Shown here: positions 4,854 to 63,093 of the stretch, piece after piece | Position numbering within the stretch: the first letter of the stretch is position 1 | Layout of the letters: each line of letters begins with the position of its first letter | IMG/VR virus record: IMGVR_UViG_3300024493_000235 | Location: 96,001-160,000 of that record | DNA from: a virus | Lineage: Duplodnaviria > Caudoviricetes | Length of the DNA: 64,000 bases | Strand: one strand, 5' to 3' | Position numbers and translations under genes: made by a program | The notes under the pieces: generated by a model | The model's input: only the letters and a program-made list of their open reading frames with translations | Told to the model about the DNA's origin: nothing | The model's database searches: none

Positions 4854-4883
4854 TATCCGGGGCCAAATCGGCCCCGGATATTA
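4851..4883 (+). terminator. Intrinsic terminator hairpin (GGGGCC family)
   Basis: taatatccggggcc-aaatc-ggccccggatatta followed by a T-rich run. Confidence 0.8.
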
Positions 4884-4904
4884 TGTTTTTAATTGAAGTA
4901 TAAT

Positions 4905-4936: not shown

Positions 4937-5614
4937 ATGAGCGTAGAAGAAATATCACTAGAAGCTATTCTAAACGATGATGTAGGTAAAACTATTATTC
5001 ACGGCATTGGTGATAAATTTAAATTCTCAGAAGACGCGTTTTATAACGAAGAATTTGACAAAATACGGGGTGACTTAGACAATCGAAACGTTGAAGTCAT
5101 TGATCGCGAAAAAGAAACTGGCCATATCGATCATTTCATCTGGAATATCGGAAAAAGCAATGAAAACATTACCGACACAAGCGAAGAGAAAGACGGGTTT
5201 TCATTTTATATGGCAAGATTTATCCATTACGATCCATACAAAATGGAAGTACCAGAACTTGCAGACCAATCAAAAGGAGAAGACCGAACGGCCTTCATAG
5301 GACAAATTTTTGATCCTTTACATCCGACATTATCAAAGAAAGATCCTGTACTTGCTATTATTCAACTTAAAAAAGAATATAAAGGCAGAATACGGATTAT
5401 ATTTTGTTACAGAAAAAATCTTTCAAAAGAACTTCGACTGGCATATTTTGAACGCGCTACTGCGATGTCGCGTACAGAAAACAGACGAAAACCTGTAACT
5501 AAAGAAAGTGCAGCTCAAAACGGGGAAATATACGATGATCCGTATGGCGGCGACTTTCCGAAGGCGCTTGATCGACTTCGTAAAATAGTCGACAATTGGG
5601 AAGAGTCTGATTAA
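4937..5614 (+). CDS. BrnT (DUF497/RelE-fold)-like protein with N-terminal head-protein-type leader, paralog 1
   Basis: ATG at 4937 follows AGGAGG (MSVEEISLE...). The core FIWNIGKSNEN..KDGFSF..DP..EDRTAFIG..VLAII..RIRII follows the BrnT pattern W-x3-K-x3-N..K(H)G-x-F..ER-x3-IG..IRIISAR. Clear paralog of 55125..55787. Confidence 0.65.
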   Translation: MSVEEISLEAILNDDVGKTIIHGIGDKFKFSEDAFYNEEFDKIRGDLDNRNVEVIDREKETGHIDHFIWNIGKSNENITDTSEEKDGFSFYMARFIHYDPYKMEVPELADQSKGEDRTAFIGQIFDPLHPTLSKKDPVLAIIQLKKEYKGRIRIIFCYRKNLSKELRLAYFERATAMSRTENRRKPVTKESAAQNGEIYDDPYGGDFPKALDRLRKIVDNWEESD

Positions 5615-5618
5615 TCAT

Positions 5619-5652
5619 ATAATATCTGGGGTCATTTGGCCCCAGATATTAT
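5619..5652. terminator. Bidirectional terminator hairpin
   Basis: ataatatctggggtca-tt-tggccccagatattat between convergent genes. Confidence 0.8.
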
Positions 5653-20953: not shown

Positions 20954-22288
20954 ATGCTGCATTCTTTAGGTATGGTTTCAGATATCGTAAGATACGTTTC
21001 AAGTAAAAGAGGCACATTAACCGAAGATGAACAACAAAGTCTTTTAAATATGTATGGAGAATTAAAGACTTTGTCACAACCCAAATCGATAGCATCGGAA
21101 TCAAAATCGAGTATATTTGATTATCCGTTTTTAATATCGAGCAACGTTTCACAATTGGAACACATAGCTGGTATTATGAAGGGTTGTGAAATCGAATATG
21201 CTAACATGATTATTCTTATGAGTGGAGTAAATCCAACCATAGATAACGATCAGCAAATTAAGATAAAAAGAACCCTCTCAAAATATCACACTTCTGGAGC
21301 TGATTACTCTGCCAAATACGAAGATTACAGCGTAGATAACGTTGTAGAAAAAACAATTGATGAATCGTGGAAAGCTGTCGCCATGGAAGATGACGATGAT
21401 AAAGATGAAAAGGGCGGCGGTAAAAAGAAAGGCGGTAGACAATGGGGCGGAAATCCAGATCCCGAATTTGACAAAAAGGGGAATCCGAACCCTAGAAATC
21501 CATTAAAGGTAACTGAAAACGAAATTAATAGTGCAAAAGCCGCAGCACAATTTGATGGCAGTGGCGCTAACAAATGTTACTCAACAAAGGTTGTGCATGA
21601 CAAATATGCAAACATGTTTAACATGACCATCATTGAAATTGTCGTAAGACTTGACAGCACAGACGACACATCGATAAAGATTCCAATCGGTGTTCATGGC
21701 ACAGCACACCATCTTCCTTTCCAAGAGCTTATATATGTGATGACTCGGTACATAACGGGAAGAGCCCAAGGGTTTTTAAACCGGTTTATTCGCTGGACTT
21801 CCGGTGAAATAAAAGGCCTTCACAATCTCTTATTCCGATACAGTGAAATAAAGAGCGATATCGAATACGAAAGACGTGTCGGAACAAGTAACTCTTGGAT
21901 TAAGGTTCTTCGTTCTCGTGCAAATAACCGCAGGGTAAATATTTTGCAAAGGTCGATAGGACTTGCAAAAGACGGAAATTGCACTTATCCTAACTGCAAC
22001 GACATACTTCCTGATTGTACATTCGTTATAAGCATGGGAGATGTCGATGTTATCGAACAACAGACCGGCATTAACATTTTTCAAGATCCTATTAAAGCTA
22101 AGAAGTTCTTGGACGATGCTATGGGATTGGGTCTTGTAATTGTTGACGATGTACACGATATCGTTCATGTGCTTTTTGCATCTTACACAAAGTTCCAATC
22201 GAACCCTATAAAAGCGTTCGCATCGGAATACAGATCAAAGGGAGATAATACAAACATATTAATCGACCTTATGAAGAAATTAGGATAA
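20954..22288 (+). CDS. Putative virion head protein
   Basis: 444 aa, late promoter, internal VAMED site and low-complexity insert. Confidence 0.6.
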   Translation: MLHSLGMVSDIVRYVSSKRGTLTEDEQQSLLNMYGELKTLSQPKSIASESKSSIFDYPFLISSNVSQLEHIAGIMKGCEIEYANMIILMSGVNPTIDNDQQIKIKRTLSKYHTSGADYSAKYEDYSVDNVVEKTIDESWKAVAMEDDDDKDEKGGGKKKGGRQWGGNPDPEFDKKGNPNPRNPLKVTENEINSAKAAAQFDGSGANKCYSTKVVHDKYANMFNMTIIEIVVRLDSTDDTSIKIPIGVHGTAHHLPFQELIYVMTRYITGRAQGFLNRFIRWTSGEIKGLHNLLFRYSEIKSDIEYERRVGTSNSWIKVLRSRANNRRVNILQRSIGLAKDGNCTYPNCNDILPDCTFVISMGDVDVIEQQTGINIFQDPIKAKKFLDDAMGLGLVIVDDVHDIVHVLFASYTKFQSNPIKAFASEYRSKGDNTNILIDLMKKLG

Positions 22289-22300
22289 TAAGGAGAGACC

Positions 22301-23416
22301 ATGTCAGAAATATTTGGACACGATCCTGCAACACCAAAAGACAAGCCGAAACCAGAGGTTTGGACAGAGGACTTCATGCAGATCCTTACTAACGAAAAAT
22401 CCCGTTCATTTTTTTGTGAAAACGTGGACGGGAAACTTACTGTTACAAACGAATCGGTAAAATCTTTTGTACTCGAGAAGTTATATGAGTTGGTTTCCAA
22501 AAAGATATCCCAACTCGATCCCGACTATCAGGAGATTTTAAACACCAAAGGTGATTACACAAAGTACAAATACTACGCCATAATATCCCAGACTGTAAAG
22601 TCCTTAAGCTCTCTTATAAAAGAGCAAAAAGGAAAAATGTCCGATATAAGCACGTACCAACTTGAAGAGGTGTTTAAAGCTCATGACAACCTCGTTAAGA
22701 ATGTCAAGAGTATAAAAGATGCTTTTACATACGATATAGTAGTTGTAAAACAGTATTACCTTGTCGTAGTTTCTTCAATTATTTACTCACTGGGATTTGT
22801 CGTTTCAACAATGATTGATTACGAAAGGCGGGATGCGAAAGTTCCATACGATCTTATATTCAAAAACGTCAACATTATGGAACGAGGGCTTCCAAAAAAC
22901 ATGATGAGCACAATTCAGATGTTTAATACCGATATCCAAAAAGGCGCAATCATTAAAACCGTGAATACCATGAAAAATAAAAAACCTTCTGCCATGGTGC
23001 AAAAAGAAGGAGCGAAAGTTTCCATGGAATTCGGTATCACTACTGCTACGGCTTTGTGGGTTGGTGTTGGCATTATAAGCATCATAATTTTACTTCCGCT
23101 TATAAGACACCTTATATACTTTTTCTTACATACAAAGGTCCGTCTTTCCGAATATTGTGAACAGCAAGCAAACTACTTAGAGCTTAACATTAGAGCTTTA
23201 AGAAGTCAAGGCGCTGATCCGAAAATAATCGAGAAACAAGAAAAAGCTGTAAAGAAATTGCAAGATTTTGCAGCTAAGCTTTCTGGCGATATATACAACA
23301 CACAGAAAAAGGTCGACAGTGATATACAAGATGAAGATAGGGATGTCGTTCGTGAAGCCGATAGAAAGGAAAAGGATTCAGGAGACGATTTATCTGATTC
23401 TGAAGTAGTCCTGTAG
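22301..23416 (+). CDS. Putative virion protein with hydrophobic segment
   Basis: 371 aa. VSMEF precedes the TM-like ALWVGVGIISIIILLPLI, followed by coiled coil. Confidence 0.6.
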   Translation: MSEIFGHDPATPKDKPKPEVWTEDFMQILTNEKSRSFFCENVDGKLTVTNESVKSFVLEKLYELVSKKISQLDPDYQEILNTKGDYTKYKYYAIISQTVKSLSSLIKEQKGKMSDISTYQLEEVFKAHDNLVKNVKSIKDAFTYDIVVVKQYYLVVVSSIIYSLGFVVSTMIDYERRDAKVPYDLIFKNVNIMERGLPKNMMSTIQMFNTDIQKGAIIKTVNTMKNKKPSAMVQKEGAKVSMEFGITTATALWVGVGIISIIILLPLIRHLIYFFLHTKVRLSEYCEQQANYLELNIRALRSQGADPKIIEKQEKAVKKLQDFAAKLSGDIYNTQKKVDSDIQDEDRDVVREADRKEKDSGDDLSDSEVVL

Positions 23417-23424
23417 GAGGATGT

Positions 23425-24528
23425 ATGGAAACAGATATCACCCAGGACTCAAGCGATGCTATTGCAATTGAAGCCGAAATGGTTAGCCTCATGACAGAAG
23501 CAGGGGAGCTCGAAATAACTCTTGGAGAATTGTTTACGGACTTAGACGGACTTAAAAATGCAAGACTTGTAATTGAGGCATCCGTAACCCAAGAACAATC
23601 GCAGCGGTTCGCTTTTGAAAGTATTATCGATGAAGAAGATTCCGTATGGAAAAAAATTGTCGATACCATAAAAAAATGGATTGAGAAGATAAAGGAACTA
23701 TGGGGCAAATTTATTCAGTGGCTTAAAAGCTGTTCCTATGAAACTGAAAGTGACAGATATTACAAACACCGAGGTCTCTGTGCAGTAGGAATAGAGCATG
23801 CCACAGCAGGAGATACTGTAACGATAAAAAATTACGTTATCGATAATCCAATGGAAACCGTTGTTTCTGATATACTTGCAATAAACTCAAGCCTTGATGC
23901 GTTCTATGAACTTGCAAAAAAGACTGTTACAGATTTTCTCAATCCGTCTCCCACAGTTCGAAAGTCATTTTGGGAGAAACTCAAGGAAAAATTCAAAGGC
24001 GCTCCACCTGCACAAGCTCACGTATCAGAAGTTATACGCGCGGAATGGGAAAAACTCGAAGTACAAATAGGTATCAAAGGGATGGAAGGATCTTTTACAT
24101 CTCAAAATGTAAAACACATGATATCCCTTAAGTACTTCAAAAACGGTGACAAAAAAGAAAAGAAAGAAGTCCCTGTAAAGGACTTTGCCAAAACCATTCA
24201 AATAATTGATTCTTTTTTAGAGCAAAGCAAAATAAAAGAGCTTGAAAAAATGTGCACGGTTATTCGCAATGGTTCGACAGAACTGCAAAAACTACTTCAT
24301 GATATCGAGAAATACAAAATGCAGGATCTGTCCAAAGAACAGGATGCTGAGCTTATGAAGGATATTGCAATGGGTAAAAATGGATCAATTATAATCATTC
24401 GTAATACCCTTTCTATCTGCAATGCGATAGGACAGTTATACTGGGGTATCTTTCTTATGATACGGGAAGATGTCAAAAAATGCGTATCGACGTATTGTAA
24501 AATCGCAAAAAAGCGAAAGAAATCCTGA
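23425..24528 (+). CDS. Internal head protein-like paralog
   Basis: Acidic propeptide, FAFES site, then an amphipathic WKKIVDTIKKWIEKIKELW helix shared with neighbouring paralogs. Confidence 0.6.
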   Translation: METDITQDSSDAIAIEAEMVSLMTEAGELEITLGELFTDLDGLKNARLVIEASVTQEQSQRFAFESIIDEEDSVWKKIVDTIKKWIEKIKELWGKFIQWLKSCSYETESDRYYKHRGLCAVGIEHATAGDTVTIKNYVIDNPMETVVSDILAINSSLDAFYELAKKTVTDFLNPSPTVRKSFWEKLKEKFKGAPPAQAHVSEVIRAEWEKLEVQIGIKGMEGSFTSQNVKHMISLKYFKNGDKKEKKEVPVKDFAKTIQIIDSFLEQSKIKELEKMCTVIRNGSTELQKLLHDIEKYKMQDLSKEQDAELMKDIAMGKNGSIIIIRNTLSICNAIGQLYWGIFLMIREDVKKCVSTYCKIAKKRKKS

Positions 24529-24533
24529 TTATC

Positions 24534-24609
24534 CCTAGGGCTATAATGGCCCTAGGGTATTTTTCTTCAATTTACCCCCCCCCCCGATATTGAAACAATA
24601 TAATAATCT
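24534..24609 (+). repeat. Duplicated terminator-poly(C)11-late promoter cassette, copy 1
   Basis: Identical to 28422..28495 except C11 vs C9. Contains the hairpin cctagggcta-taa-tggccctagg and AACA-ATATAA-TA (24594..24605). Confidence 0.9.
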
Positions 24610-24642: not shown

Positions 24643-25368
24643 ATGGGAGAACGAATAAAAGAAGTAACTCTCGAAGAACTTCTTGAAGAACCCGAAGTTG
24701 TTATAGAGCAAACCGAAGGAATCGAAGCGTACGAATGTTTCATTGACAACCCAAATATGGGTTTAGCTTTCGCCGATATGGGAGAAGTTACCGTTGAAAA
24801 ATGGATTGGACATGCTGCAGATAAGAAAGCTCCAGATGCGATTAAACTTCGTATTTCAAAGTTGGGATTTGGGGGCGATGCGATCCTTCCCGACGGTTCA
24901 AAAGTAAAATTAACGTACAAAGATGTGTTAGGCTCCACGTATGTTAAAAACGCCCTTAAAGAGTGGGATGATTATTACGTCAAACAACTCGGATACAGGC
25001 AATTCACTCAGGAAGATAAAGGTAAAATGAAAACCGATTTCTCCCAATATCTGTGTAAGTTATTTAGCCTTACTTGGACATCTAAACTTTCTTGTGAGGT
25101 GATAGACGGTCACGGATATTTCTCACAATTTGCAACAACTTTGGGAAAAGAGATCATCGATAATTTGGAAAGACCACAAAACGAGATGAAGTGGGCTGCA
25201 AATCAAGGTGGTGTATTTATCATCTATGTGAAGCCTAGCCAAGACGGAAAACCGGATAAAGTTTTCTCAAGACGTTTTATTACACTCGGTGTTATCACCA
25301 AAAAAGCGAACTATTTCGAAAAAAGAGGCGGCTCGGGCGGTATCGATATCGGAAAGATAAACAAATAA
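24643..25368 (+). CDS. Late protein with KEVTLEELL leader (putative head cargo)
   Basis: MGERIKEVTLEELLEEPEVV, AAGGAG RBS, own late promoter and terminator. Confidence 0.7.
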   Translation: MGERIKEVTLEELLEEPEVVIEQTEGIEAYECFIDNPNMGLAFADMGEVTVEKWIGHAADKKAPDAIKLRISKLGFGGDAILPDGSKVKLTYKDVLGSTYVKNALKEWDDYYVKQLGYRQFTQEDKGKMKTDFSQYLCKLFSLTWTSKLSCEVIDGHGYFSQFATTLGKEIIDNLERPQNEMKWAANQGGVFIIYVKPSQDGKPDKVFSRRFITLGVITKKANYFEKRGGSGGIDIGKINK

Positions 25369-26150: not shown

Positions 26151-26162
26151 AACAAGTAGATA
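26151..26162 (+). promoter_or_regulatory. Late promoter AACA-N6-TA
   Basis: AACA-AGTAGA-TA directly before the AAGGAG RBS. Confidence 0.8.
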
Positions 26163-26175
26163 AAAGGAGACATAT

Positions 26176-27123
26176 ATGGACGAAATATCATTAAATTCTC
26201 TTCTGGGAGAAGAATATACATATTGTAAAGAAGATCCTATGAATGTGATGATCGAATGTATGGATATACAAAACGAGATTATATCGCATTATGAAAATCT
26301 TCTAACACTCGAAGCCGCAAAAGAAGTGAAAAAACATAAGAAATCTTTTACAGGTGGGACAGGTCCACTTCCTACAAATACAAAACCGACCCTTACAATC
26401 GATGATTTTGATGAAGGACATGATAAAACTGTCGAAGTTGATTTCGAAGAAAAAATCGGAACTGAAAAGAATTCTCTTTACACTTCTGTAAAAAGACTTC
26501 TTACAAAAATAAAAGAGTGGATCCAAAGCATTGTGTTTAAATTGATAACTCTTATAAGGAAAGATGAACTTACACTTAGGAATCCTACAAATATACATAA
26601 AATAAACACGTTCTTAACACAAGGAAAAGCTCTTAATACTTATCCTTTTCCAAGAGAACCTGAAACTCTGGTACAGGAAATATTACAAGATATATCCCGT
26701 ATCTGTAATAAAGTATTAACACCTTCTTTTAAATCTCAAATAACAGATTCAGCAGACCTTCCATTTGTGAATGAAACTGTAATGGGAATTTCTCTTAACC
26801 TTTCTAGGGAAGATATATTAAAAGAACTAAGAAAGAAATTACTTGGAGGTGCTTTAACTACTAGATCCGTTCCCTTACTTGATGCGCATATTACGATTGC
26901 AACCTTTGATTATTTTATCAAAAAAGCACCAGCGGATTTAAAAGACGTACAAAAAAGCTTTCATGTGGCAGAATCTGTGTTTCCCTCGTATGATGTGGCT
27001 TCAGATACCTTAAACACATATAAAGTATCAATATTTGTGGCTCAAAAGGCCATTTTTACCTCATTGCAGGCCGTTTCTAAAATTATCTTCCACATATCTT
27101 CTCTTATCCACCAATGTGTCTAA
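26176..27123 (+). CDS. Internal head protein-like paralog
   Basis: MDEISLNSLL leader. IECMDI, LLTLEAAK and GGTGPLPT motifs shared with 27251..28408. Confidence 0.7.
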   Translation: MDEISLNSLLGEEYTYCKEDPMNVMIECMDIQNEIISHYENLLTLEAAKEVKKHKKSFTGGTGPLPTNTKPTLTIDDFDEGHDKTVEVDFEEKIGTEKNSLYTSVKRLLTKIKEWIQSIVFKLITLIRKDELTLRNPTNIHKINTFLTQGKALNTYPFPREPETLVQEILQDISRICNKVLTPSFKSQITDSADLPFVNETVMGISLNLSREDILKELRKKLLGGALTTRSVPLLDAHITIATFDYFIKKAPADLKDVQKSFHVAESVFPSYDVASDTLNTYKVSIFVAQKAIFTSLQAVSKIIFHISSLIHQCV

Positions 27124-27250: not shown

Positions 27251-28408
27251 ATGGCCAGAATTGAAGAAATCACACTCGAAAGTTTGTTAAATCCGCAGAG
27301 CGAATTGTATGTCGATCCGGCTGATGCTCTTGTAAGCGACGACCCAGCCGAGGTTGCCATCGAATGTATGGATATCCTTGATGAACTCCACACGCTCCAG
27401 GGAAATCTTCTGTCATACGAAGCTGCCAAGGCTGTCAAGAAAGCCAAATCCGCTTCTAAGAAGAAGAAAATCGTGAAAACGAAAATGAAAGCCAAGGACG
27501 CCAAAGCAAAACTCAAGGATCCGAAAACACTTAAGGTGAAGAAAGTCACCAAGGAATCCGATGCCGCCACCGACGGTGGAACTGGCCCGCTGCCGACAAC
27601 CGCCGATACGAATGGTCTTACCGAAACCGATTTGGATGTTGACCCGGATGCCGAAGTCGAAGTTTCCGAAGTTTCCGACGAGACACTGCCCGATGACAAC
27701 TCCGCAAATGCTGCCGCCACAGAAGGCGTTGATTTCTGGGTTGAATACGAAGATGCAGGAATCGTAACATTGGAAGCGAACGTGAAAGAAAATCTCAAGA
27801 AGTTCGGCGAAGCCATCGTTAAGATGCTTAAAGCCGTGGCCGATTTCTTTGTATCAATTGGAAAGAAATTTATCGGGATTTTCCAGAACGTCGAGCAGTA
27901 TTACAAGACAAACAAAGCCGCCGTTGATGCCGGATTTACAGACGGGTTTGAAATGCAGTCGAAATTCAAACTCGATGCCGGTGTGCTCGCCAAAATCGGC
28001 GAAGCCATAAAAACTCAGATGGATTCCGCCGTTGATACGGGCGAAGAGCAAAAAACAATTACTGGCCTCTTTACTGAACTTGGCGAAAACGGGAAGGTAA
28101 CCAATAAGGATTGTGGATTCTCAAGTGGAAACGATATTGTCGGATGCTTTAACGGCACAGTAAAGAAAGCCGTAAACGACTGTATTGCTGCGGCCAAGAA
28201 AAAGGGTGCCGAGAAAACTGCTGCGGCCAAGAAAGCTGCCGACAGTGGCAACAAGGAAGAACTCACCAAGATTAAAAAGGATGCCAGCAATATGCAGAGG
28301 AGTGCATCCACATTGTACAAAGAATACGGAAAAGCTGCTGCATACGGAATGAAAATTCTCCATGCCGCCGCTGCCGCCGGTTCAAAGAAAGCCCCCGCGG
28401 CCAAATAA
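27251..28408 (+). CDS. Probable abundant internal head protein (Lys/Ala-rich)
   Basis: AAGGAG RBS supports ATG at 27251 (MARIEEITLESLL). LSYEA/AATEG/VTLEA sites. Visibly more GCC/AAG codons than neighbours. Confidence 0.7.
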   Translation: MARIEEITLESLLNPQSELYVDPADALVSDDPAEVAIECMDILDELHTLQGNLLSYEAAKAVKKAKSASKKKKIVKTKMKAKDAKAKLKDPKTLKVKKVTKESDAATDGGTGPLPTTADTNGLTETDLDVDPDAEVEVSEVSDETLPDDNSANAAATEGVDFWVEYEDAGIVTLEANVKENLKKFGEAIVKMLKAVADFFVSIGKKFIGIFQNVEQYYKTNKAAVDAGFTDGFEMQSKFKLDAGVLAKIGEAIKTQMDSAVDTGEEQKTITGLFTELGENGKVTNKDCGFSSGNDIVGCFNGTVKKAVNDCIAAAKKKGAEKTAAAKKAADSGNKEELTKIKKDASNMQRSASTLYKEYGKAAAYGMKILHAAAAAGSKKAPAAK

Positions 28409-28421
28409 CTGATTTTTAAAT

Positions 28422-28495
28422 CCTAGGGCTATAATGGCCCTAGGGTATTTTTCTTCAATTTACCCCCCCCCGATATTGAAACAATATAATAATCT
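28422..28495 (+). repeat. Duplicated terminator-poly(C)9-late promoter cassette, copy 2
   Basis: Matches 24534..24609. Promoter AACA-ATATAA-TA at 28480..28491. Confidence 0.9.
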
Positions 28496-28516: not shown

Positions 28517-29614
28517 ATGTATGTAAAAGAAGTTACCCTTGAAGAATTACTTGATGATAATTATGGTAAAGATACAACCTTGGAAAACGTAATATCCGAA
28601 GAAGATTATGAACTTATAGATATTACAACCACATGTGATTTACTTGATATGGCGGTGGATATGAATGACGGCATCGATTATCTAGCTGCATGTATGATGC
28701 ACGGTACCAAAATAGGCGATACCATATACACCATAGAAGGTGTAAAAGAAGCGGCAAAAACTATTATTGCTTTCATAGGTAAAGCAATTCAATTATGTCT
28801 TTCGTTATTGTCCCGATTAGGCACAATAATAGTCTTTCCAGTCTTACTTCTCATAAAATTCTTCGGAAAAATTCCAATGAAAAAGTTTTTAAACGCCATA
28901 AAAGAAAGCTGGCATGAAACAGATCAACTGTTTTTAAACGCACTTGTTCCATTTGTAAGTTCAGACATAACTCAAGAAATAAACAAAATTGATCTTGAAC
29001 TTAGAAGAGAAACGAATGATGGTATTTCACTTCTGGAAGACGCCATATTAAACGCTAAGCATGATTTGGCGGTTATCTCTATAAAAAATACACGTGACGC
29101 TATGGAACGTCAACAGAAGAAAAACGAATTCCAAGTGAACTCATTTAATATGCAAATTGATGAGATATTATCTTTATATGATGATATCGAAAAAGAGTCT
29201 AAATCAAGAAAAGAACAATGGGAAAATTCGACTAGCAAACAGTACCAAAAAGATTTTGACAGTATATACAACAACTTTTCTGATGCACATGTATTCGGCG
29301 ACATTGAAAGATGGGGTGCAAATAATATAAAGCGACAATGCGAAGAGAGTGAAAAACATCTTCAAAAAATAGCAAAAGATATTCAAAATATATCTTTCGA
29401 TGATACCGATGCAACCATTCCTGAAGATGAAGTACGAAATTTTAGGGTGTGTATATTAAATATGGTAAACGGTGTTAGAAGTATAATACAATGCCGTATT
29501 AAATTATGCACAATTAGGAATAAATTTTCATTTCGCGTATGCCAAAATGTAAAAAAAATTTACGATTCTATAGGGCGTAAACAGCAAGATGAAAATCTTG
29601 AACTGCGGAAATGA
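28517..29614 (+). CDS. Internal head protein-like paralog with KEVTLEELL leader
   Basis: MYVKEVTLEELLDD, YTIEG site, then a hydrophobic amphipathic helix and coiled coil. Confidence 0.7.
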   Translation: MYVKEVTLEELLDDNYGKDTTLENVISEEDYELIDITTTCDLLDMAVDMNDGIDYLAACMMHGTKIGDTIYTIEGVKEAAKTIIAFIGKAIQLCLSLLSRLGTIIVFPVLLLIKFFGKIPMKKFLNAIKESWHETDQLFLNALVPFVSSDITQEINKIDLELRRETNDGISLLEDAILNAKHDLAVISIKNTRDAMERQQKKNEFQVNSFNMQIDEILSLYDDIEKESKSRKEQWENSTSKQYQKDFDSIYNNFSDAHVFGDIERWGANNIKRQCEESEKHLQKIAKDIQNISFDDTDATIPEDEVRNFRVCILNMVNGVRSIIQCRIKLCTIRNKFSFRVCQNVKKIYDSIGRKQQDENLELRK

Positions 29615-29653: not shown

Positions 29654-31312
29654 TTAAAAGAATGCGAATCGCGTTCTCAATGCTGCTTTTACATCGTCAC
29701 CAAAAGGAAGACTTAACATAAGCAATTCATTCGGTAACCCATTTTGCACACAATATTTTATTGCAATCTTTCGTAAGCGAGGAATATCTGCTAACACCTG
29801 TCTAAAAATATCCATTTTCTCTGCCGCCGATATTCCAGAAATATTTCCGCCAAAACGATCTGGATCCACCTCATCTGCAAGTTCCTGTTGACGATTCTTT
29901 CCAGAAGCATGAGTTCCTGTACCGGCATTTCCTGCATATGCCATGTGCCCATATTCATGACCTACGATAAATAAATACCAATTATTTTTATCGGTATCTT
30001 TCCAACTTGCAATCAGGGACGAGACGACAATTGCAATATTTTTTGTCGCATTATTGATGCATTGTTTTACCTCATCAATTGACATTTCACGCCGTGAACC
30101 ATCTGAGTTTATTTGTAACAATGTTTCCATTACAGGAAGACATACGGCTCCTCCGTGTATTGCAACTGTTGCATCGTCAACATATACGCTTATATCACCA
30201 ATTGTATCAATAGGATCTTTGCTTCCATCTCTAGGTACAAATATACCGTCATGAATAGCACCGCCTATTTTTGCTATATTGTGTACAGAGGAATCGATGG
30301 TTCTAAAATACTTTGCAATTGCAACATTTTGTTTTGCAATTTCATTCACATCGTAACGAATGCAGTTCAATGCTTGTTGGATTATTTGCCTATATTTTGA
30401 TGGCATCTTTTCAAAAAGAGTTTGACTTGTCATTCTTTCAAATATCTTTTCAACGTTAGATAATTCTTTTGTAAAATCCAAAAGTTCTTTTGAAAGATTT
30501 TTCGTGTCTGAGTCGAGTTTTTCTCGAAGATTCTCAGAAAGAGTCAATATTTCTCCTAAGCTGCGTACAACTTCAGGACCCTTTAAATCTTTAAATGTCC
30601 TGTCGCTATTTAATACTTCAAGATTCTGTAAGAGGGTCTCTGCATTAAACGAGTTTCTCTCATCCTTTTTTTCTTCGCGAATTCGTACATGATCCACAAG
30701 TTTTCCGAATTCAGAAGACGAGTCTATTTTATGTACATCATTTACAACACCGTTTACAGTTTTAAAATCTCCTGCGAATAACCAAGAAGCAGCACTTTCG
30801 ATTTCTTTCAAAAACTGTCGTAATTCTTTTGCGTTTTCGTATTCCCTTGGAATAAGTGCTTGTAACTCTTTGTATGTTTTGGGGGCGTCACGTGCAATAT
30901 CACCGATGTTTGTTTTTACACGAACAGAATCGCAACTTAATCCGCCACTACCCGTTTTTAAATATGCGTCAACGTTTTGTTTAGTTTTCCATCTCATAAT
31001 CATTCTGAGAGGCCATGTGATTATGGAAAAAATAAACTTCATAACGTTATTTATAAAACGCGTAATTGCAAGAAAAACATTTTTAGCTCCGGTCTTAAAT
31101 TTGTTCCAAGCTTCCCCTTCTGTTGTAATGTTTAACGTATCGCATACAACACTTGCAGATTCAAACACCATACATTCCTGAATGAGTTCCATAACTTCGA
31201 TATTTTCACATTGAAGTTCAATGAATTGACCTGCAAGTTCGTCGTAATCTTCGCATACAACTTCAGGTTCTTCTTCTTTAAGTAATTCACTTAAAGTTAC
31301 TTCTTTCACCAT
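29654..31312 (-). CDS. Head-protein-family member with C-terminal HEXXH zinc metallopeptidase-like domain
   Basis: MVKEVTLSELL leader, ITTEG site, amphipathic helix, then FIVGHEYGH and a downstream DEVDPDRFG. Confidence 0.65.
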   Translation of the reverse strand: MVKEVTLSELLKEEEPEVVCEDYDELAGQFIELQCENIEVMELIQECMVFESASVVCDTLNITTEGEAWNKFKTGAKNVFLAITRFINNVMKFIFSIITWPLRMIMRWKTKQNVDAYLKTGSGGLSCDSVRVKTNIGDIARDAPKTYKELQALIPREYENAKELRQFLKEIESAASWLFAGDFKTVNGVVNDVHKIDSSSEFGKLVDHVRIREEKKDERNSFNAETLLQNLEVLNSDRTFKDLKGPEVVRSLGEILTLSENLREKLDSDTKNLSKELLDFTKELSNVEKIFERMTSQTLFEKMPSKYRQIIQQALNCIRYDVNEIAKQNVAIAKYFRTIDSSVHNIAKIGGAIHDGIFVPRDGSKDPIDTIGDISVYVDDATVAIHGGAVCLPVMETLLQINSDGSRREMSIDEVKQCINNATKNIAIVVSSLIASWKDTDKNNWYLFIVGHEYGHMAYAGNAGTGTHASGKNRQQELADEVDPDRFGGNISGISAAEKMDIFRQVLADIPRLRKIAIKYCVQNGLPNELLMLSLPFGDDVKAALRTRFAFF

Positions 31313-31397: not shown

Positions 31398-32663
31398 TTA
31401 TGTATTAGACATAGCTTGTGCTTTTAATACCTTGGTACACTCTATGGAAATCTCTGCACACTTAGAAAGTACATCTTTCCATGCAGCATCCATCGCCTCA
31501 TATTTCTCAGTTGAAATCGTTGCAGGGTTTGCATTATCCCGTACAAATTGATAAAACAGCCTTTTTTCAATGGAACTGTCTTGAATGTTTGGAGTATAAT
31601 GCTTATACCACTGTCGTACAAATAATACCGATAGCACTAAAAGCGGAGAATCAAATCTCTCCAGTGTGACTTCATCTTCTTCTATACCTGCAAGAAGTGC
31701 AAGACGAGATCTATTCCATCGTAGCATACTTCCAACAAAGTTACCAATTGTATACTCCTTGTTGTTTGTTGTAAGCATACCGGAAAACAACAGTTTATTT
31801 GCACGGGCAATAATATCGTGAAGTTTCTTGGAGTCGTTGAGCTCGTTATATAAAAAGCTTTTTGCGGCATCCGTTTCAGTTCTCGAATCAAGATACTTTT
31901 TGAAAGATTCAAGTATCCAAGCAGGCCCCTGTGTGGCATATTCACTGAATTTTTTATCAAAGACTTTTTGTGCGATACCGGTATCTTCAAATTCTTTTTG
32001 AGCGTCAACGGCTTCTTTTGAACGAATCTTTATTTCAAGAGTATCCTTTATGGCTTCTCTTCTTCGCGCTTCATCGTAATAAGGAGATGTGGGATCGGTC
32101 TTTCCGGCTATGATGGCATCAACATCGTTATTTAATTGCTCGATCACAATATTCATCGTATTACGATCGAATGCGCCAATTTTTATCATGCCCTGTATTT
32201 CTTCCTCTGTGAATCTAAGAAGAGATGGATTTTCCAAATACATATCAAGCTGCATTAATGTATTCTGATGATACTCCATATCCTTCTTAGTCAATTCATC
32301 CGTTTCAGGAACAGGAACCGCCATTACATCATTGGATGTATCAACATTTTCTTGCTGTGGCGTTTTTTCAACTTCTGTAACGGTGATATCGCTAGCTGTA
32401 TCCGCAGAAGTATCATTAGGTTTTTTTTCAGGAAGACATATCGTATCAAAGTCGATACCCGTCATTCTTTTGAAGTTTTCTTTAAGGGTGTTATAATCTG
32501 TCTCGTTGTGACATGCGGCGAGTTTTTGTTTCATCTCTTCGATGAACGGTTTATTTCTCTCGTCATCAATTACAACTTTTACAAAGTTTTTTGACGGATC
32601 ATCCCGAGTAAACTCGGATTCTCCTGTTGGAAGCGGGAGTGTAATTTCTTCTGTTTGTAACAT
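31398..32663 (-). CDS. Hypothetical late protein
   Basis: 421 aa, second gene of a late operon. Confidence 0.7.
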   Translation of the reverse strand: MLQTEEITLPLPTGESEFTRDDPSKNFVKVVIDDERNKPFIEEMKQKLAACHNETDYNTLKENFKRMTGIDFDTICLPEKKPNDTSADTASDITVTEVEKTPQQENVDTSNDVMAVPVPETDELTKKDMEYHQNTLMQLDMYLENPSLLRFTEEEIQGMIKIGAFDRNTMNIVIEQLNNDVDAIIAGKTDPTSPYYDEARRREAIKDTLEIKIRSKEAVDAQKEFEDTGIAQKVFDKKFSEYATQGPAWILESFKKYLDSRTETDAAKSFLYNELNDSKKLHDIIARANKLLFSGMLTTNNKEYTIGNFVGSMLRWNRSRLALLAGIEEDEVTLERFDSPLLVLSVLFVRQWYKHYTPNIQDSSIEKRLFYQFVRDNANPATISTEKYEAMDAAWKDVLSKCAEISIECTKVLKAQAMSNT

Positions 32664-55096: not shown

Positions 55097-55106
55097 TATA
55101 CATAAT
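55097..55106 (+). promoter_or_regulatory. Early/middle promoter motif variant TATACATAAT
   Basis: Same position relative to the RBS as the other copies. Confidence 0.55.
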
Positions 55107-55124: not shown

Positions 55125-55787
55125 ATGGGAAAACGAATAAAAGAAGTAACTCTTGAAGAAGAAAACAATATCGTTCATGGTATTGGTGACAAATTTAAGT
55201 TTTCTCGAAAAGCCTTTCGAGAAAAAGAATTCGACAAGACTATTGGTGATTTAGACAAACGCAATGTCGAAGTCATTGACAGGGACAAAAACACAGGAAA
55301 GATATTTCATTTCATATGGAATATTGGAAAAAGCAACGATAATATCGACGACACAAGAGAAGGAAAGGGAGGATTTTCATTTTATTTATCAAGATATGTA
55401 TATTACGATATATACAAAATGGAAGTACCCGACCTTGTAGAAGCACAATACCGACATGAACGTACTGCATATGTAGGACAAATATTTGATCCGGAAAGAC
55501 CGCACGCAAGAACAAAAACTCCGGTAGCCATAGTAATACAACTGAAGGAAGAAAAAAGGGATAGAATTCGAATCATTTCTTCATATATGAAAGATCTTGA
55601 TCATGGTATTACAGAGTTATATTATGATCGAGCATTAAAAATGGCGCGGAAAGGAGCTCAACAACAAAAAATAACCTTAGAAAAAACTGTTATCGAAGGC
55701 CCAGTCGATGATCCTCCGCCAGGAGAAGTACAAAAAGCAATCAATGAAATCATGGGTTATCCAGATGACGATTCCGAGATAACATGA
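55125..55787 (+). CDS. BrnT (DUF497/RelE-fold)-like protein with KEVTLEE leader, paralog 2
   Basis: FIWNIGKSNDN..GKGGFSF..HERTAYVG..VAIVIQ..DRIRIISS. Shares HGIGDKFKFS, RNVEVIDR and GQIFDP with 4937..5614. Confidence 0.65.
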   Translation: MGKRIKEVTLEEENNIVHGIGDKFKFSRKAFREKEFDKTIGDLDKRNVEVIDRDKNTGKIFHFIWNIGKSNDNIDDTREGKGGFSFYLSRYVYYDIYKMEVPDLVEAQYRHERTAYVGQIFDPERPHARTKTPVAIVIQLKEEKRDRIRIISSYMKDLDHGITELYYDRALKMARKGAQQQKITLEKTVIEGPVDDPPPGEVQKAINEIMGYPDDDSEIT

Positions 55788-55791
55788 AATC

Positions 55792-55816
55792 ATCCGGGGC
55801 CATTACGGCCCCGGAT
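55792..55816 (+). terminator. Intrinsic terminator hairpin
   Basis: atccggggcc-attac-ggccccggat followed by a T-rich tail. Confidence 0.8.
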
Positions 55817-59769: not shown

Positions 59770-62700
59770 TTATTTTGTAAGTTCTTCGGCTAAAACTGCC
59801 GCATTCCTTTCATCGATACCGATATCATCATTAGCATCATTCTTTTCTTGAACAACAGAGATGATGTTTTTAACGATATCTTTCTTCGAAGCCGTTATGG
59901 GAGCTGCCAATTCGTCAGCAGTTTTTGCTTTACTTTTGAACTTAACAAAAACCCTTATACAAAAATAAAGAAGTCCTTGTCCTATTCTCCCATTTTTAAA
60001 ATTCTCTTTAGGGGATATGCAATCGTTATACAATTGCTTTATATCGTTCAAATCTTTGAGTGCTTTTTCTCGCAATTCCTGTGACAAATATTTGTTGGTA
60101 TTGAGTTCTTTTTCAAGATTTTCATACATTGCTTTGATTCTTACCCTGTTTGTAGGATGATCATCTAAAGCTGCCAACATCGAAATCGTGCCCGCCATAT
60201 TGAATTGTTGTATGGTGTTTAAAATAGGAATCTTACATACGTCATGAACATTTTGCTCATTTTCATATAGATGATAGTTAAGAGCACTTAAGTCTCCACC
60301 GAGTCCATACATTGTAGCAAAATAGTCTGCGAATTTTTCATCTCTATGTCTTCTGTTAAAATATACACCACGTACTGCCAAATCCAGTAAATAAAACGGG
60401 TCGTATAATATTACAGTTGCAAATGATGTTAAACCCGGAATTGGGATGACAGAGACTATCGATACCAAAACAGATTGAAGACATGAAAGAATAAGTACAA
60501 CAGGATTTACAATAGTATCGGAACCCTGATTTTTTGGTTTTTGAGCTTTACCATCTTTGAATTCTGTTGTATTCATATCTTGGGTTGTCGATGCTTGTAA
60601 TTCTTGAGCAAATTTAAGTCTATCCTTTCCAAGACCAAACTTTTGAAAAAGTCCTACAACAAGAGCAAAAACTTGCTTTGTGGCATTAACAATTTGAAAC
60701 GAAAGGGCGTACGCAAAGAAATCTTTTATAGCTCCTGCTGTAACAGCGAACATCATCGATTGTCTTTGTCTTTGTATAGATTCGTTTTTATAATGCTGAA
60801 ATCCGTGCCCAATTTCGTGAAACATAACTGCAACGATTGTAGTTTCACTTAATTTTGGATCTGTTATAAGACGTATCCCAAGCGAAATTATAAAAAAGAT
60901 ATTATCCGGTTTTTCAAACTTTATGCCATTAGAGGTTTCAATAACTTTTGTAGTTTTTGCAGCTTTAAGTTGTACAGAATTTCCTCTCACCATTGAAAGA
61001 GCGTATGCGTTGTAAATATTTTCTAACCCCAAAATCGTGTCTTCTGTGTTGAATTCTTTTGACAATTCTTTTCCCCAAATTTTGAGAATATTTTTTATTT
61101 TTTCTCGATTTTCTTGTGGAATAGTTCCAGAAGTTGGGAAAAGGGATCTTATTTTTTTGAGGTAATTTATCGAGTTCTTTACGATAGCGGTTTGTCCGAA
61201 ATATCCTTCCATTGTCACAGAACGAAGATTTTCATATTCTACGTCTGTAAGTGGGGATTCAAATGCTACGACACAATCTAACGGATCGACATATTTATCT
61301 TCTTCGACCATTGATAATGGGGATTTACCTTCGATTATTTCAAGAACAGACTTTTCTTCGTCCGGTTTAAACTTAAGAATTTTCTTAATATCAAAAGAAT
61401 TTATCCACGCAGATATTGCATGGAGTCCTATTGAAAGTTTACTAGGTTTCTTTTCGACACTGAGATCTCCTTTTATAAAAATGCCCTTGAAAAACCTGAA
61501 CGCATAATACATAAAAGCGACAGCATGATTATTTTCTTCCGAATTCAGTTTCGGATCCGTACGTACTTTGTACGTTTCATTAACCCTGTTTATGTCTTCA
61601 ATAAGAGCCTTTTTAAGTTTCGGATTTAATGCTTGCGCTTCAAGATCCTTTACAAGATTCTTATGAACGTTCACAATACGGGCATGATCGGTAGGATGAC
61701 CTGAAATATGATTTTCCATTGCAACTAATAATAAAGCTGGCATTTGAGCTACAACATTTACGACTGGTATATTATTCGTTGCTTTGAAGATACCACTTTT
61801 TATAAAATCCGCACTCACATTTATATCACGAAACAATTTTAGAGCTTCTGTAATTTCAGGTCCCATGCCATATGCTGCGGCTATCTCATCTGCCGTTTTT
61901 TCAATTTTCTTTCCAACCCAAACTCCAGGAGGAAGGACACTCATCATAAGTTTTGATATCACATAACCTGGAAATCCGTATAACACAATTTGAAATGCTG
62001 TTGTGAGTATGCATATAATCTGTCTTACTACAACATTTACTGCAAGGGTTAAATCTTCAAATTTTCCAACAACAAAAGATCCTTCAAGAAGTTTATGTCT
62101 TGTCTCCTTTATCTTCGTGCTTTCATCGGTTGTTCTGTCAAAAAGATATCCCCAGAAATTCTTTACGTTTAAAAATATTGCTTGAATGCAATTTATAAAA
62201 ATTAAAAAATTTCTTCCAAAATCACCAACGTTATATGCAGTCTTTTTTACAAAATCCGATTTTTTGAATATCTCGGCGTATTTATCCCAAATCGGTTTAA
62301 CGTAAGAATCTTCACCTGGAGGAATTAAAAGTTCGTCGATTTCTTTATTCTTTTTGTATTCGTCTTTCATGAACTTTACGTTTGAAACAGCTTGAGAACC
62401 TTCTTTGTATGCTGTTTTAAAACTGCGTACAGCAGAATAAACACTTAATGTTGTTTTCACCGCGATATCTATTTTTACCCAAAGACGTTGGACTCCAATA
62501 CTCCATCCAGTCTTGTATTGCAAAAAAGAATGTCCAATTTCATGAAAGTACATCGCTGTCAAATGTTCGGGTTTCACTTGCTTTGCAGCTAACATATTCA
62601 CACTAAGATTGACGATGATATGATGTCCTTCTTTGTGTATATAGCGGATACCATTTTTATCAATTTTTATTTTTGAATACTCCTCCATGGCCTCTTTATC

Positions 62701-63093
62701 GCCATATTTTTCATATTGGGATAAGTCTAATTTGCCGGTAGAAACTGGTATCGAAGAGATTTCTGCCGTATGAGTTATTATGTTCATTGTCACACTTTCG
62801 ACATTAAAATGCTCTTCACTTAGCTCTTCTATTGTCTCCAATTCCCGTCTAATTAAATCGCGAGTTTTATCATCAATAACCGTATAAAGGCGTGCAATAA
62901 GCGCATTTTGTATCCTTGCAAAACACTTTGTAATACGGTTTACAACGGGTAATTTTCCAAAATATTCTTCGTATGAAACTTGCGTGCTATTTAATTTTTC
63001 TATCGCTTTTTCCATCTGAATTGATGTGTCATGAAGGATAAAATTTTGAGGAAAATAGAATCTTTTTGGTATTATCATATCTTCATCGTACAT
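59770..63093 (-). CDS. Tandem double M48-like zinc metallopeptidase, putative virion protein
   Basis: Two homologous halves, each with E-x-YFG, FHEIGH, EKxAD..YG and HPTxxxRI plus hydrophobic segments. Late promoter. Confidence 0.8.
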   Translation of the reverse strand: MYDEDMIIPKRFYFPQNFILHDTSIQMEKAIEKLNSTQVSYEEYFGKLPVVNRITKCFARIQNALIARLYTVIDDKTRDLIRRELETIEELSEEHFNVESVTMNIITHTAEISSIPVSTGKLDLSQYEKYGDKEAMEEYSKIKIDKNGIRYIHKEGHHIIVNLSVNMLAAKQVKPEHLTAMYFHEIGHSFLQYKTGWSIGVQRLWVKIDIAVKTTLSVYSAVRSFKTAYKEGSQAVSNVKFMKDEYKKNKEIDELLIPPGEDSYVKPIWDKYAEIFKKSDFVKKTAYNVGDFGRNFLIFINCIQAIFLNVKNFWGYLFDRTTDESTKIKETRHKLLEGSFVVGKFEDLTLAVNVVVRQIICILTTAFQIVLYGFPGYVISKLMMSVLPPGVWVGKKIEKTADEIAAAYGMGPEITEALKLFRDINVSADFIKSGIFKATNNIPVVNVVAQMPALLLVAMENHISGHPTDHARIVNVHKNLVKDLEAQALNPKLKKALIEDINRVNETYKVRTDPKLNSEENNHAVAFMYYAFRFFKGIFIKGDLSVEKKPSKLSIGLHAISAWINSFDIKKILKFKPDEEKSVLEIIEGKSPLSMVEEDKYVDPLDCVVAFESPLTDVEYENLRSVTMEGYFGQTAIVKNSINYLKKIRSLFPTSGTIPQENREKIKNILKIWGKELSKEFNTEDTILGLENIYNAYALSMVRGNSVQLKAAKTTKVIETSNGIKFEKPDNIFFIISLGIRLITDPKLSETTIVAVMFHEIGHGFQHYKNESIQRQRQSMMFAVTAGAIKDFFAYALSFQIVNATKQVFALVVGLFQKFGLGKDRLKFAQELQASTTQDMNTTEFKDGKAQKPKNQGSDTIVNPVVLILSCLQSVLVSIVSVIPIPGLTSFATVILYDPFYLLDLAVRGVYFNRRHRDEKFADYFATMYGLGGDLSALNYHLYENEQNVHDVCKIPILNTIQQFNMAGTISMLAALDDHPTNRVRIKAMYENLEKELNTNKYLSQELREKALKDLNDIKQLYNDCISPKENFKNGRIGQGLLYFCIRVFVKFKSKAKTADELAAPITASKKDIVKNIISVVQEKNDANDDIGIDERNAAVLAEELTK

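What the first reader, a model, noticed from the sequence alone, without database searches (positions are those of the whole stretch)
55125..55160. Portable N-terminal leader: 34/36 nt identity between two unrelated genes
Seen: the first 12 codons of 55125 (atgggaaaacgaataaaagaagtaactcttgaagaa) and 24643 (atgggagaacgaataaaagaagtaactctcgaagaa) differ at two positions, yet the downstream proteins are unrelated, and the true paralog of 55125 (4937) has a different version of the leader. The (K/E)E(V/I)(T/S)L(E/S/N)xLL motif begins at least seven proteins: 4937, 24643, 26176, 27251, 28517, 29654..31312 and 55125. Payloads include BrnT-like domains, a HEXXH peptidase and helical head proteins. Inference: a shuffled capsid-targeting or processing tag (analogous in concept to the T4 capsid targeting sequence) that recruits variable enzymes as virion cargo, i.e. 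a polymorphic effector-delivery system.
Basis: partly seen in the sequence, partly recalled or inferred. Interest (0 to 1): 0.85.

Follow-up and report, generated by a model that had tools for sequence, protein, structure and literature searches.

The report
Shared head-cargo leader, jumbo phage
An uncultured 268-kb phage puts the same roughly 10-residue peptide at the very start of eight otherwise different proteins; it is most likely an address-and-cutting tag that loads them into the virus head, as phage T4 does with its internal proteins, but neither packaging nor cleavage has been shown.

Summary
The first 36 nt of 55125 and 24643 differ at 2 sites, the extreme outlier among 30,876 gene pairs. 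A core x-E-(V/I)-(T/S)-L-x-x-(L/I)-L scores at least 21 bits at 8 places in the six-frame genome. All 8 lie 0-4 residues after a start codon with a ribosome-binding site. Synonymous sites are almost randomised, so the peptide is what is conserved, not the DNA.

The genome is a phiKZ/AR9-related jumbo phage with a T4 gp21-type (S77) prohead protease.

- **Late genes:** 26176, 27251, 28517 and 31312(-) are diverged relatives sharing a 65-125-aa acidic N-module that ends in a second (S/T)-x-E site. Homologues of the 552-aa protein in other metagenomic phages all start with the same motif and weakly match phiKZ internal head proteins. phiKZ gp93 is known to be cut at SLE-13.
- **Leader only:** 24643 and the BrnT-like pair share just the 10-20-aa leader. 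Two leaderless BrnT-like paralogues exist in the same genome.

Best reading: a T4-CTS-like head-loading and processing tag. The main caveat is that the BrnT-like copies have early-type promoters.

This is a new variant of a known kind. This scan has met analogous tags, with other sequences, in other huge phages.

The parts
55125..55787 (+). BrnT-like protein (220 aa). Leader = 55125-55160 (MGKRIKEVTLEE), truncated form without the LL; the domain starts about 5 residues later.
   Evidence: (21.0 bits, not in the training set)
55097..55106 (+). Early-type promoter motif TATACATAAT, 28 nt before the 55125 start.
   Evidence: 41 genes carry this class; none is a known virion-protein homologue
55792..55816 (+). 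Terminator-like hairpin closing the 55125 cassette.
4937..5614 (+). BrnT-like paralogue (225 aa). Leader = 4937-4972 (MSVEEISLEAIL).
   Evidence: 26.2 bits
4905..4914 (+). Early-type promoter motif TATATATAAT before 4937. Strong terminators at 4850-4884 and 5619-5652 make the gene a stand-alone cassette.
24643..25368 (+). ORFan protein (241 aa). Leader = 24643-24684 (MGERIKEVTLEELL). It shares only the leader with the others, plus EPEVV with 31312. Late AACA-N6-TA promoter at 24594-24605.
   Evidence: (33.1 bits)
26176..27123 (+). Internal-head-protein-like protein (315 aa). Leader = 26176-26205 (MDEISLNSLL); acidic N-module ending at TLE-46|AAK. Paralogue of 27251. Late promoter at 26151-26162.
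   Evidence: (24.9 bits)
27251..28408 (+). Paralogue of 26176 (385 aa). Leader = 27251-27289 (MARIEEITLESLL); acidic N-module ending at SYE-57|AAK, followed by a Lys-rich stretch.
   Evidence: E 7e-10; 29.7 bits
28517..29614 (+). Helical protein (365 aa). Leader = 28517-28552 (MYVKEVTLEELL); acidic module ending at TIE-74|G, then a membrane-helix-like segment. Late promoter at 28480-28491.
   Evidence: 33.8 bits; hhalign 63%, E 7e-5
29654..31312 (-). 552-aa protein. Leader = 31312-31280 (MVKEVTLSELL); acidic module ending at TTE-65|G; hydrophobic helix; C-terminal GHEYGH zincin motif. Late promoter at 31347-31336.
   Evidence: (30.6 bits)
31398..32663 (-). NOT part of the set: 421-aa protein starting MLQTEEITLPLP, a chance resemblance.
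   Evidence: Below the 8-bit listing threshold of the PSSM scan; its homologue in L037 (17626-19002) starts MDITEQIPTT, without the motif.
20954..24528 (+). Context: three late virion-protein genes directly upstream of the leader cluster. 20954 and 22301 are homologues of Bacillus phage BpSp gp270 and gp271.
   Evidence: BpSp gp271 and gp272 were found in virions by mass spectrometry (PMC4870245).

Best explanation
The peptide M-x(0-4)-(K/E/D)-E-(V/I)-(T/S)-L-x-x-(L/I)-L is an N-terminal head-internal leader. During procapsid assembly it binds a core, scaffold or inner-body component, so the protein that carries it is enclosed. The phage's gp21-type (S77) prohead protease then cuts it off, after (T/S)-L-E and/or hydrophobic-x-E at residues 9-12.

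In four late proteins (26176, 27251, 28517, 31312) the leader heads a longer acidic propeptide. That propeptide ends at a second conserved (S/T)-x-E|(A/G) site at residues 46-74, as in phiKZ and SPN3US internal or ejection proteins.

The same 10-20 residues have also been placed in front of unrelated bodies: ORFan 24643 and BrnT-like RNase-toxin-fold proteins. That would make these cargo to be released into the next host with the DNA.

Shown: the motif, its N-terminal exclusivity, selection acting on the peptide, its conservation in homologues from other phages, the presence of the protease gene, and late promoters on five bearers. Inferred: binding, packaging, cleavage and ejection.
For: 1. 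Exclusivity: 8 of 8 strong PSSM hits in about 370,000 six-frame positions lie 0-4 residues after a start codon with a ribosome-binding site.
2. Selection on the peptide: leader codons for identical residues are the same in 83 of 162 comparisons, against 68.5 expected from codon bias alone.
3. Add-on architecture: the BrnT-like domain occurs with the leader (4937, 55125, and a decayed copy at genome 180685(-)). It also occurs without it, in paralogues at genome 14830(-) and 14125(-) and in the metagenomic homologue P0003. Cutting 55125 at TLE-11 would leave almost the N-terminus of the leaderless paralogue.
4. Protease: Peptidase_S77 at genome 249752-250597, 39.9-40.4 bits against a cut-off of 27.
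5. Sites: (S/T)-L-E at residues 9-11 in five bearers, with L-S-E or L-D-E in two more. A second (S/T)-x-E|(A/G) site sits at 46, 57, 74 and 65 in the four long-module proteins, at columns that hhalign aligns.
6. Deep conservation: all 11 diverse homologues of the 552-aa protein (20-31% identical) start M-x(2-5)-(T/S/A)-(F/L/I)-x-E-(L/I).
7. Other genomes: contig L037, which carries capsid and terminase homologues, has two genes starting MIVTLESLL and MIKVVTLESLL. L039 has two starting ..ATFEEII and ..VTFEELM. The L or F variant therefore tracks the genome.
8. Link to known internal head proteins: PF12699 phiKZ_IP is the top Pfam family for the homologue set (3 of 11 members; 24.3 bits in P0009, cut-off 27). 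phiKZ gp93/94/95 start with ..L-D-x-L-(S-L)-E. gp93 is processed at SLE-13, and SPN3US gp53/54 share an identical 15-aa N-terminus with such sites (PMC5694885).
9. Context: five bearers have AR9-type late promoters and lie next to homologues of proteins found in BpSp virions.
10. Precedent: the T4 CTS is 10 residues and sufficient for packaging; T-even internal proteins share only the CTS (PMC9026906; PMC3012670).
Against: 1. 4937, 55125 and the decayed third copy have early-type promoters (TATAYATHAT, the class that precedes replication-type genes). They are insulated by terminators and have no late promoter. Cargo made early would have to persist until heads assemble.
2. No site is universal: 26176 has SLN-S, with no Glu in the leader.
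3. The residues conserved after the putative cut (x-x-L-L) would stay on the mature protein if cleavage is at TLE, unlike the T4 CTS.
4. Membership in PF12699 is below threshold. hhalign against phiKZ gp92-96 gives only 20% probability, and the own-genome scan gives only noise.
5. The nearest cultured relatives (BpSp, 36% terminase identity) have neither these proteins nor any such N-terminal family. No proteomic data therefore bear on it.
6. For the four late relatives the shared leader can be explained by common descent alone.
Confidence: 0.55

Rival explanations
1. Inherited N-terminus with a protease site only. The motif is simply the ancestral start of a diverged internal-head-protein family (propeptide with a first cleavage site). 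Illegitimate recombination copied it onto 24643 and the BrnT-like genes by accident. It has no autonomous targeting power and the small proteins are not cargo.
For: Four bearers share 65-125 aa and are probably paralogues. The motif is ancestral in the 552-aa family. In phiKZ the analogous N-terminus is confined to paralogues. The 55125/24643 pair looks like a recent 36-nt exchange: 9 of 10 identical residues use the same codon, P = 0.002. One leader copy sits on a decayed gene.
Against: The leader is kept at the amino-acid level, with drifted codons, on three BrnT-like copies that are themselves only 50% identical. It has therefore been maintained on that payload for a long time. A possible ninth, diverged bearer (149 aa, genome 203973-204422(-)) has a homologue in L039 that carries that genome's variant of the leader.
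Confidence: 0.2
2. Address or docking tag for something other than the capsid. The peptide binds a phage partner that is present from early infection, such as a chaperone, a membrane or early-infection compartment, or an inhibitor that keeps toxic enzymes in check. Both early-made and late-made proteins use it.
For: Bearers fall into both promoter classes. The conserved L-L lies after the putative cut. Earlier work in this scan showed that a shared phage N-terminal tag can belong to a non-capsid system (note e1-127136).
Against: No replication, transcription or other early-function protein carries the tag. Five bearers are late genes embedded among virion genes. The tag contains protease-type sites, and its nearest precedent is a processed head protein. 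No radical-SAM enzyme is encoded.
Confidence: 0.15
3. Nucleic-acid element. The shared 5' coding sequence serves translation initiation, mRNA stability or regulation, and the peptide is incidental.
For: 34/36 nt identity in one pair. The sequences are A-rich starts.
Against: Across all 28 pairs, synonymous positions are close to random (83/162 against 68.5 expected) while residues are conserved. The upstream untranslated regions are unrelated except for the promoter cassette shared by 24643 and 28517. Homologues in other phages keep the peptide with different codons.
Confidence: 0.03

Closest known systems
Capsid targeting sequence (CTS) of phage T4 internal proteins IPI, IPII, IPIII and Alt (Mullaney and Black 1996; reviewed in PMC9026906, PMC3012670)
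   Same: A short (7-19 aa) N-terminal peptide shared by otherwise unrelated proteins. It ends in the motif of a gp21-type prohead protease, and a homologous S77 protease gene is present here. The payloads vary rapidly.
   Different: There is no sequence similarity to MKTYQEFIAE. The host phage belongs to the phiKZ/AR9 lineage, not the T4 lineage. Some bearers carry a further 50-110-aa acidic propeptide, and some have early-type promoters. Packaging and cleavage are untested here.
N-termini of pfam12699 internal head / ejection proteins of phiKZ-like phages: phiKZ gp93 cut at SLE-13; SPN3US gp53/gp54 with an identical 15-aa start carrying AXE-12/SXE-15 (PMC5694885)
   Same: (S/T)-L-E lies at residues 9-13 of a head-internal protein, followed by a long propeptide with further (S/A/T)-x-E sites. 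There is weak profile similarity between the 552-aa family and PF12699, and a paralogue cluster sits among head genes.
   Different: In phiKZ and SPN3US the shared N-terminus is confined to paralogues (for phiKZ). Here it also heads unrelated small proteins. PF12699 membership is not established.
N-terminal packaging signal of phage P1 DarB (first 30 residues; PMC9024508)
   Same: An N-terminal peptide sufficient to load a protein into a myovirus head for delivery.
   Different: The other P1 Dar proteins share no consensus with it, and no protease site is involved. It is a different phage lineage.
Polymorphic toxin/effector systems (conserved N-terminal trafficking part, variable C-terminal payload)
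   Same: A constant N-terminal part sits on interchangeable bodies, including a toxin-fold RNase domain. Copies show birth-and-death turnover, including one decayed copy.
   Different: The constant part is only about 10 residues, and the presumed vehicle is a virion, not a secretion system.

Membership tests
T4-type capsid targeting sequence (functional class) | Short N-terminal peptide shared by proteins that are otherwise unrelated | tested here: met
   24643, the BrnT-like pair and the long-module group share nothing but 10-20 residues. The motif is exclusive to N-termini.
T4-type capsid targeting sequence (functional class) | Peptide ends at a prohead-protease site (Glu at P1; L/I-x-E in T4, S/A/G-x-E in phiKZ) | tested here: inconclusive
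   (T/S)-L-E is present in 5 of 8 and L-(S/D/E)-E in 5 of 8. Seven of 8 have at least one; 26176 has none. The specificity of this phage's protease is unknown.
T4-type capsid targeting sequence (functional class) | Genome encodes a gp21-type prohead protease | tested here: met
   PF03420 Peptidase_S77, 39.9-40.4 bits against a cut-off of 27.
T4-type capsid targeting sequence (functional class) | Bearers are found in virions with the peptide removed; the peptide suffices to package a foreign protein | not testable with these tools
   The phage is an uncultured metagenomic record. No close relative with proteomics exists.
T4-type capsid targeting sequence (functional class) | Sequence similarity to the T4 CTS consensus MKTYQEFIAE | tested here: not met
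   The leader consensus read from the sequences has no similarity to it. This is an analogue, not a homologue.
Pfam PF12699 phiKZ_IP (phiKZ-like internal head proteins) | Score at or above the gathering cut-off (27 bits) | tested here: not met
   The own 552-aa protein has no hit. Homologues P0009 (24.3 bits) and P0011 (19 bits) fall below it. hhalign against phiKZ gp92-96 gives 20% probability, E 1.2e-3. The own-genome scan gives 12.3 bits, at noise level.
BrnT / DUF497 RNase toxin (PF04365) | Pfam score at or above 34.5 bits, or a clear fold match | tested here: inconclusive
   4937 scores 13.9 bits and homologue P0003 24 bits (E 4.9e-5); JGI names P0003 DUF497. The AF2 model has low confidence (pLDDT 55). 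Its best Foldseek hits are 7vd7_A (a toxin-antitoxin complex from Salmonella) and 3u97 (Brucella BrnT): probability 1.00 and 0.97, TM by target 0.64 and 0.67, but E 4e-3 and 5e-2.
Peptidase M48-like zincin | HExxH motif plus a Pfam match | tested here: inconclusive
   GHEYGH is conserved in most of the 11 homologues. PF01435 reaches its cut-off only in P0015 (20.8 against 20.3 bits) and does not hit the window's own protein.

The most novel reading that the evidence does not exclude
The tag is a genuinely transplantable, lineage-wide cargo address that is recognised twice. It loads proteins into the head, and, because copies are also expressed from early promoters, it directs both injected and newly made enzymes (RNase-toxin fold, zincin peptidase) to one early-infection site or partner. 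On this reading it is a sorting code of phiKZ/AR9-type jumbo phages, not merely a disposable propeptide.
Probability: 0.1. Interest if true: 0.8.

Novelty: new variant of a known kind. Interest (0 to 1): 0.55.

Why it matters
If the leader really loads proteins into the head, three things follow.

- **Catalogue of injected proteins:** it gives a sequence rule for listing the injected proteins of an uncultured jumbo-phage lineage. Candidate host-takeover enzymes include a BrnT-fold RNase and a zincin peptidase.
- **Engineering handle:** it offers a short tag for loading foreign proteins into phiKZ/AR9-type capsids. In that lineage only long (over 100 aa) propeptides have been described as candidate targeting elements (PMC5694885).
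- **Link between two systems:** it connects the T4 CTS idea with the SLE-13 type processing of phiKZ internal proteins.

The leaderless and leader-bearing paralogues in one genome form a ready-made natural control for an experiment.

Tried and rejected
**Searches for relatives**
- Close relatives were sought by megablast in the phage records. They were also sought by protein patterns in IMG/VR for the 552-aa protein, 55125, the terminase and an alignment. None was found.
- 24643 is an ORFan among 5.8 billion proteins, and the ESM Atlas gave no lead.
- The leader proteins have no homologues in Bacillus phage BpSp. Neither the leader DNA pattern (5 hits against 8 in the control) nor any N-terminal family of non-paralogues occurs there.

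**The peptide elsewhere**
- KEVT(L/F)EE(L/F)(L/F), as encoded by the DNA pattern searched, occurs in 14 IMG/VR contigs. It is internal in 12, near the start of a 39-aa ORF in L028 and unresolved at the cut locus edge in L026, all in unrelated small contigs, so it is not a general N-terminal signal.

**Candidates rejected or downgraded**
- 31398-32663(-) was rejected as a bearer.
- 23425-24528 has a leader-like ELEITLGELF at residues 29-38. The strong ribosome-binding site is at 23425 and none precedes the inner Met codons, so the motif is internal and was left out.

**Alternative mechanisms**
- A radical-SAM type modification tag was considered because of earlier scan notes. No radical-SAM gene is present.
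- An RNA or DNA-level element was rejected on synonymous-site drift.

**Weak or failed comparisons**
- A profile search of the BrnT-like family against PDB sequences gave nothing.
- A conserved capsid-protein cleavage site was looked for (own TME-32, L037 ACE-34, BpSp EAE about 1 column off). The result is too weak to use.
- A T4 genome review and the phiKZ proteolysis paper could not be read.

Full report
**What the window is.** The window is bases 96,001-160,000 of a single 268,442-bp, 36.8% G+C virus record. PHROG matches are to 'virion structural protein' families typical of phiKZ-like phages. There is a large terminase at 35446-37827(-) and a 2,894-aa protein with a lysin domain. The nearest named relatives by terminase are Bacillus phages BpSp (36%) and AR9/PBS1 (33%) and Staphylococcus jumbo phages (30-31%). 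The phage is therefore a distant, uncultured member of the phiKZ/AR9 group. It encodes a T4 gp21-type prohead protease (Peptidase_S77, about 40 bits against a cut-off of 27).

**The observation.**
- The two 36-nt starts are as quoted and differ at two positions. Among 30,876 pairs of called genes this pair (31/33 after the ATG) is an isolated outlier; the next is 24/33.
- The strict motif occurs 7 times in the six-frame translation of the whole genome, always at an ORF start.
- A 10-column PSSM separates 8 hits (21-34 bits) from everything else (15.9 bits or less). All 8 lie 0-4 residues after a Met that has a GGAG-type ribosome-binding site. 55125, which was not used for training, scores 21.0.
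- The eighth hit is outside the window, at genome 180685(-). It carries the leader MGEIKEVTLDELL, followed by a stop. The C-terminal half of a BrnT-like body continues in another frame, so this is a decayed third paralogue with a deletion and a frameshift.
- 31398-32663(-) was dropped: its homologue in a related contig lacks the motif.

**Peptide, not nucleic acid.** Where two leaders have the same residue they use the same codon in 83 of 162 cases, against 68.5 expected from codon bias. Synonymous sites have almost fully drifted while the residues stayed. The exception is the flagged pair, where 9 of 10 identical residues use the same codon (P = 0.002, borderline after 28 pairs). This suggests a recent 36-nt exchange with a sharp boundary at codon 12.

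**Who carries it.**
- *Long-module group.* 26176 and 27251 are paralogues over about 135 aa (E 7e-10). A profile of the 552-aa family aligns 28517 at the hydrophobic helix (hhalign 63%, E 7e-5) and 27251 over residues 3-66 (E 7e-4). These four late proteins share four features in order: the leader, a strongly acidic stretch (net charge -9 to -11 in the first 40 residues), an E-C-M-type helix, and a conserved (S/T)-x-E|(A/G) site at residues 46, 57, 74 and 65.
- *Leader-only group.* 24643 aligns with that profile over the 11 leader residues only and is an ORFan. 4937 and 55125 (50% identical) also share only the leader with the rest.
- *The BrnT-like body.* It is weakly BrnT/DUF497-like. The Pfam score is sub-threshold. 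The one outside homologue, P0003, scores E 4.9e-5 and is named DUF497 by JGI. A low-confidence AF2 model finds a Salmonella toxin-antitoxin complex (7vd7_A) and Brucella BrnT (3u97) as its best folds.
- *Leaderless copies.* The same genome holds two leaderless paralogues at genome 14830(-) and 14125(-), and P0003 is leaderless too. In 55125 the leader is an exact 11-12-residue add-on in front of the point where the leaderless paralogue starts.

**Relatives elsewhere.**
- An exhaustive HMMER search with the 552-aa protein found 14 homologues. In an alignment of 11 of them (20-31% identity) every one starts M-x(2-5)-(T/S/A)-(F/L/I)-x-E-(L/I). That makes this one of the best conserved features of the family, alongside the hydrophobic helix and HExGH.
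- Contig L037 (52.7 kb, with capsid-protein and terminase homologues) has two genes starting MIVTLESLL and MIKVVTLESLL.
- Contig L039 has two starting ..ATFEEII and ..VTFEELM. The second is a homologue of a 149-aa protein of our genome, at 203973-204422(-), that starts MHIPEVKLDDLL (12 bits). This is a possible ninth, diverged bearer.
- The variant (L or F) therefore goes with the genome, as expected if a genome-specific partner reads it. The sample is small.
- The motif is absent from BpSp and has no analogue there. The literal peptide is internal in 12 of the 14 IMG/VR contigs that hold it; L028 (start of a 39-aa ORF) and L026 (locus edge) are unclear.

**Link to known head biology.**
- PF12699 (phiKZ internal head proteins) is the commonest Pfam family among the homologues, but it stays below its cut-off (24.3 and 19 bits against 27). 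hhalign against phiKZ gp92-96 aligns the same region at only 20% probability. Membership is therefore not established.
- Independently of that, phiKZ gp93, gp94 and gp95 start MSLLKMLDKLSLE, MNLNKLLDSLE and MTFKLNEYLDSLE.
- The literature states that gp93 is processed at SLE-13. It also states that SPN3US gp53/gp54 share an identical 15-residue start with AXE-12/SXE-15, 'reminiscent of' T4 CTSs (PMC5694885).
- The T4 CTS is 10 residues, sufficient for packaging, and cut at L/I-x-E. T-even internal proteins are described as diverse proteins sharing only the CTS (PMC9026906; PMC3012670).
- In phiKZ my N-terminal all-against-all scan finds the shared start only among paralogues. The spread onto unrelated bodies is what is unusual here.

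**The main difficulty.**
- Promoter motifs separate cleanly. AR9-type late AACA-N6-TA (consensus from PMC5312081) precedes the structural genes and also 24643, 26176, 28517 and 31312.
- An early-type TATAYATHAT, found before 41 genes including replication genes, precedes 4937, 55125, the decayed copy and the 149-aa protein.
- 4937 is flanked by strong terminators and 55125 is followed by one, with no late motif in front of either.
- If these proteins are head cargo they must be made early and persist; otherwise the tag has a second use. This is why I put only 0.55 on the full capsid-cargo reading. I would give about 0.75 to the narrower claim that the four long-module late proteins are protease-processed internal head proteins.

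**Verdict.** It is a new variant of a known kind. This scan has already recorded analogous N-terminal tags with other sequences in other huge phages. No function has been tested.

Noticed in passing
window 24534-24605 and 28420-28491: 24643 and 28517 share a nearly identical upstream cassette: a poly-C run, then GATATTGAAACAATATAATAATCT, which contains the late AACA-N6-TA motif. The promoter was therefore duplicated together with, or next to, the leader.
   Followed up: partly
window 4850-4884, 5619-5652, 55792-55816: The BrnT-like cassettes are bounded by near-identical terminator hairpins (stem ATCCGGGGCC / GGCCCCGGAT). This suggests that the whole promoter-gene-terminator unit is the mobile or duplicated module.
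   Followed up: no
genome 14168-15069 (-), outside the window (about 81 kb before its start): The leaderless 220-aa BrnT-like paralogue is directly preceded by a 69-aa protein with a ribbon-helix-helix-like segment (RIRLPESMADKIAELAKRE). This is a toxin-antitoxin-like pair, whereas the leader-bearing copies have no such neighbour.
   Followed up: no
genome 180318-180685 (-), outside the window: A decayed third leader-bearing BrnT-like gene: intact promoter, ribosome-binding site and leader, about 97 codons of the core deleted, and the remainder out of frame.
   Followed up: partly
L045 7714-12800 and L046 100-2989 (metagenomic contigs of 53 and 66 kb): Another element uses a different, longer shared start (MS(K/R)KKEPYLDPNFSVEDV...) on at least two proteins with different bodies. 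One of them is 68% identical to this genome's 149-aa protein. The same payload therefore sits behind different leaders in different elements.
   Followed up: no
window 55125-55787 and 4937-5614, residues about 182-186: Both BrnT-like proteins have a conserved (I/V)-T-x-E (ITLE|K, VTKE|S) before an acidic C-terminal tail. This would allow trimming at both ends, as in T4 Alt. However, the leaderless paralogue and P0003 also have (S/T)-x-E there, so it may be structural.
   Followed up: partly
window 23425-24528: The 367-aa late protein just upstream of the cluster has a leader-like ELEITLGELF at residues 29-38, behind a 28-residue acidic extension. It occupies the position of BpSp gp272, a virion protein.
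   Followed up: partly
window 59770-63093 (-): A 1,107-aa late protein with two HEIGH motifs (Peptidase_M48, 23.6 bits) carries no leader. Not every peptidase-like late protein is tagged.
   Followed up: no
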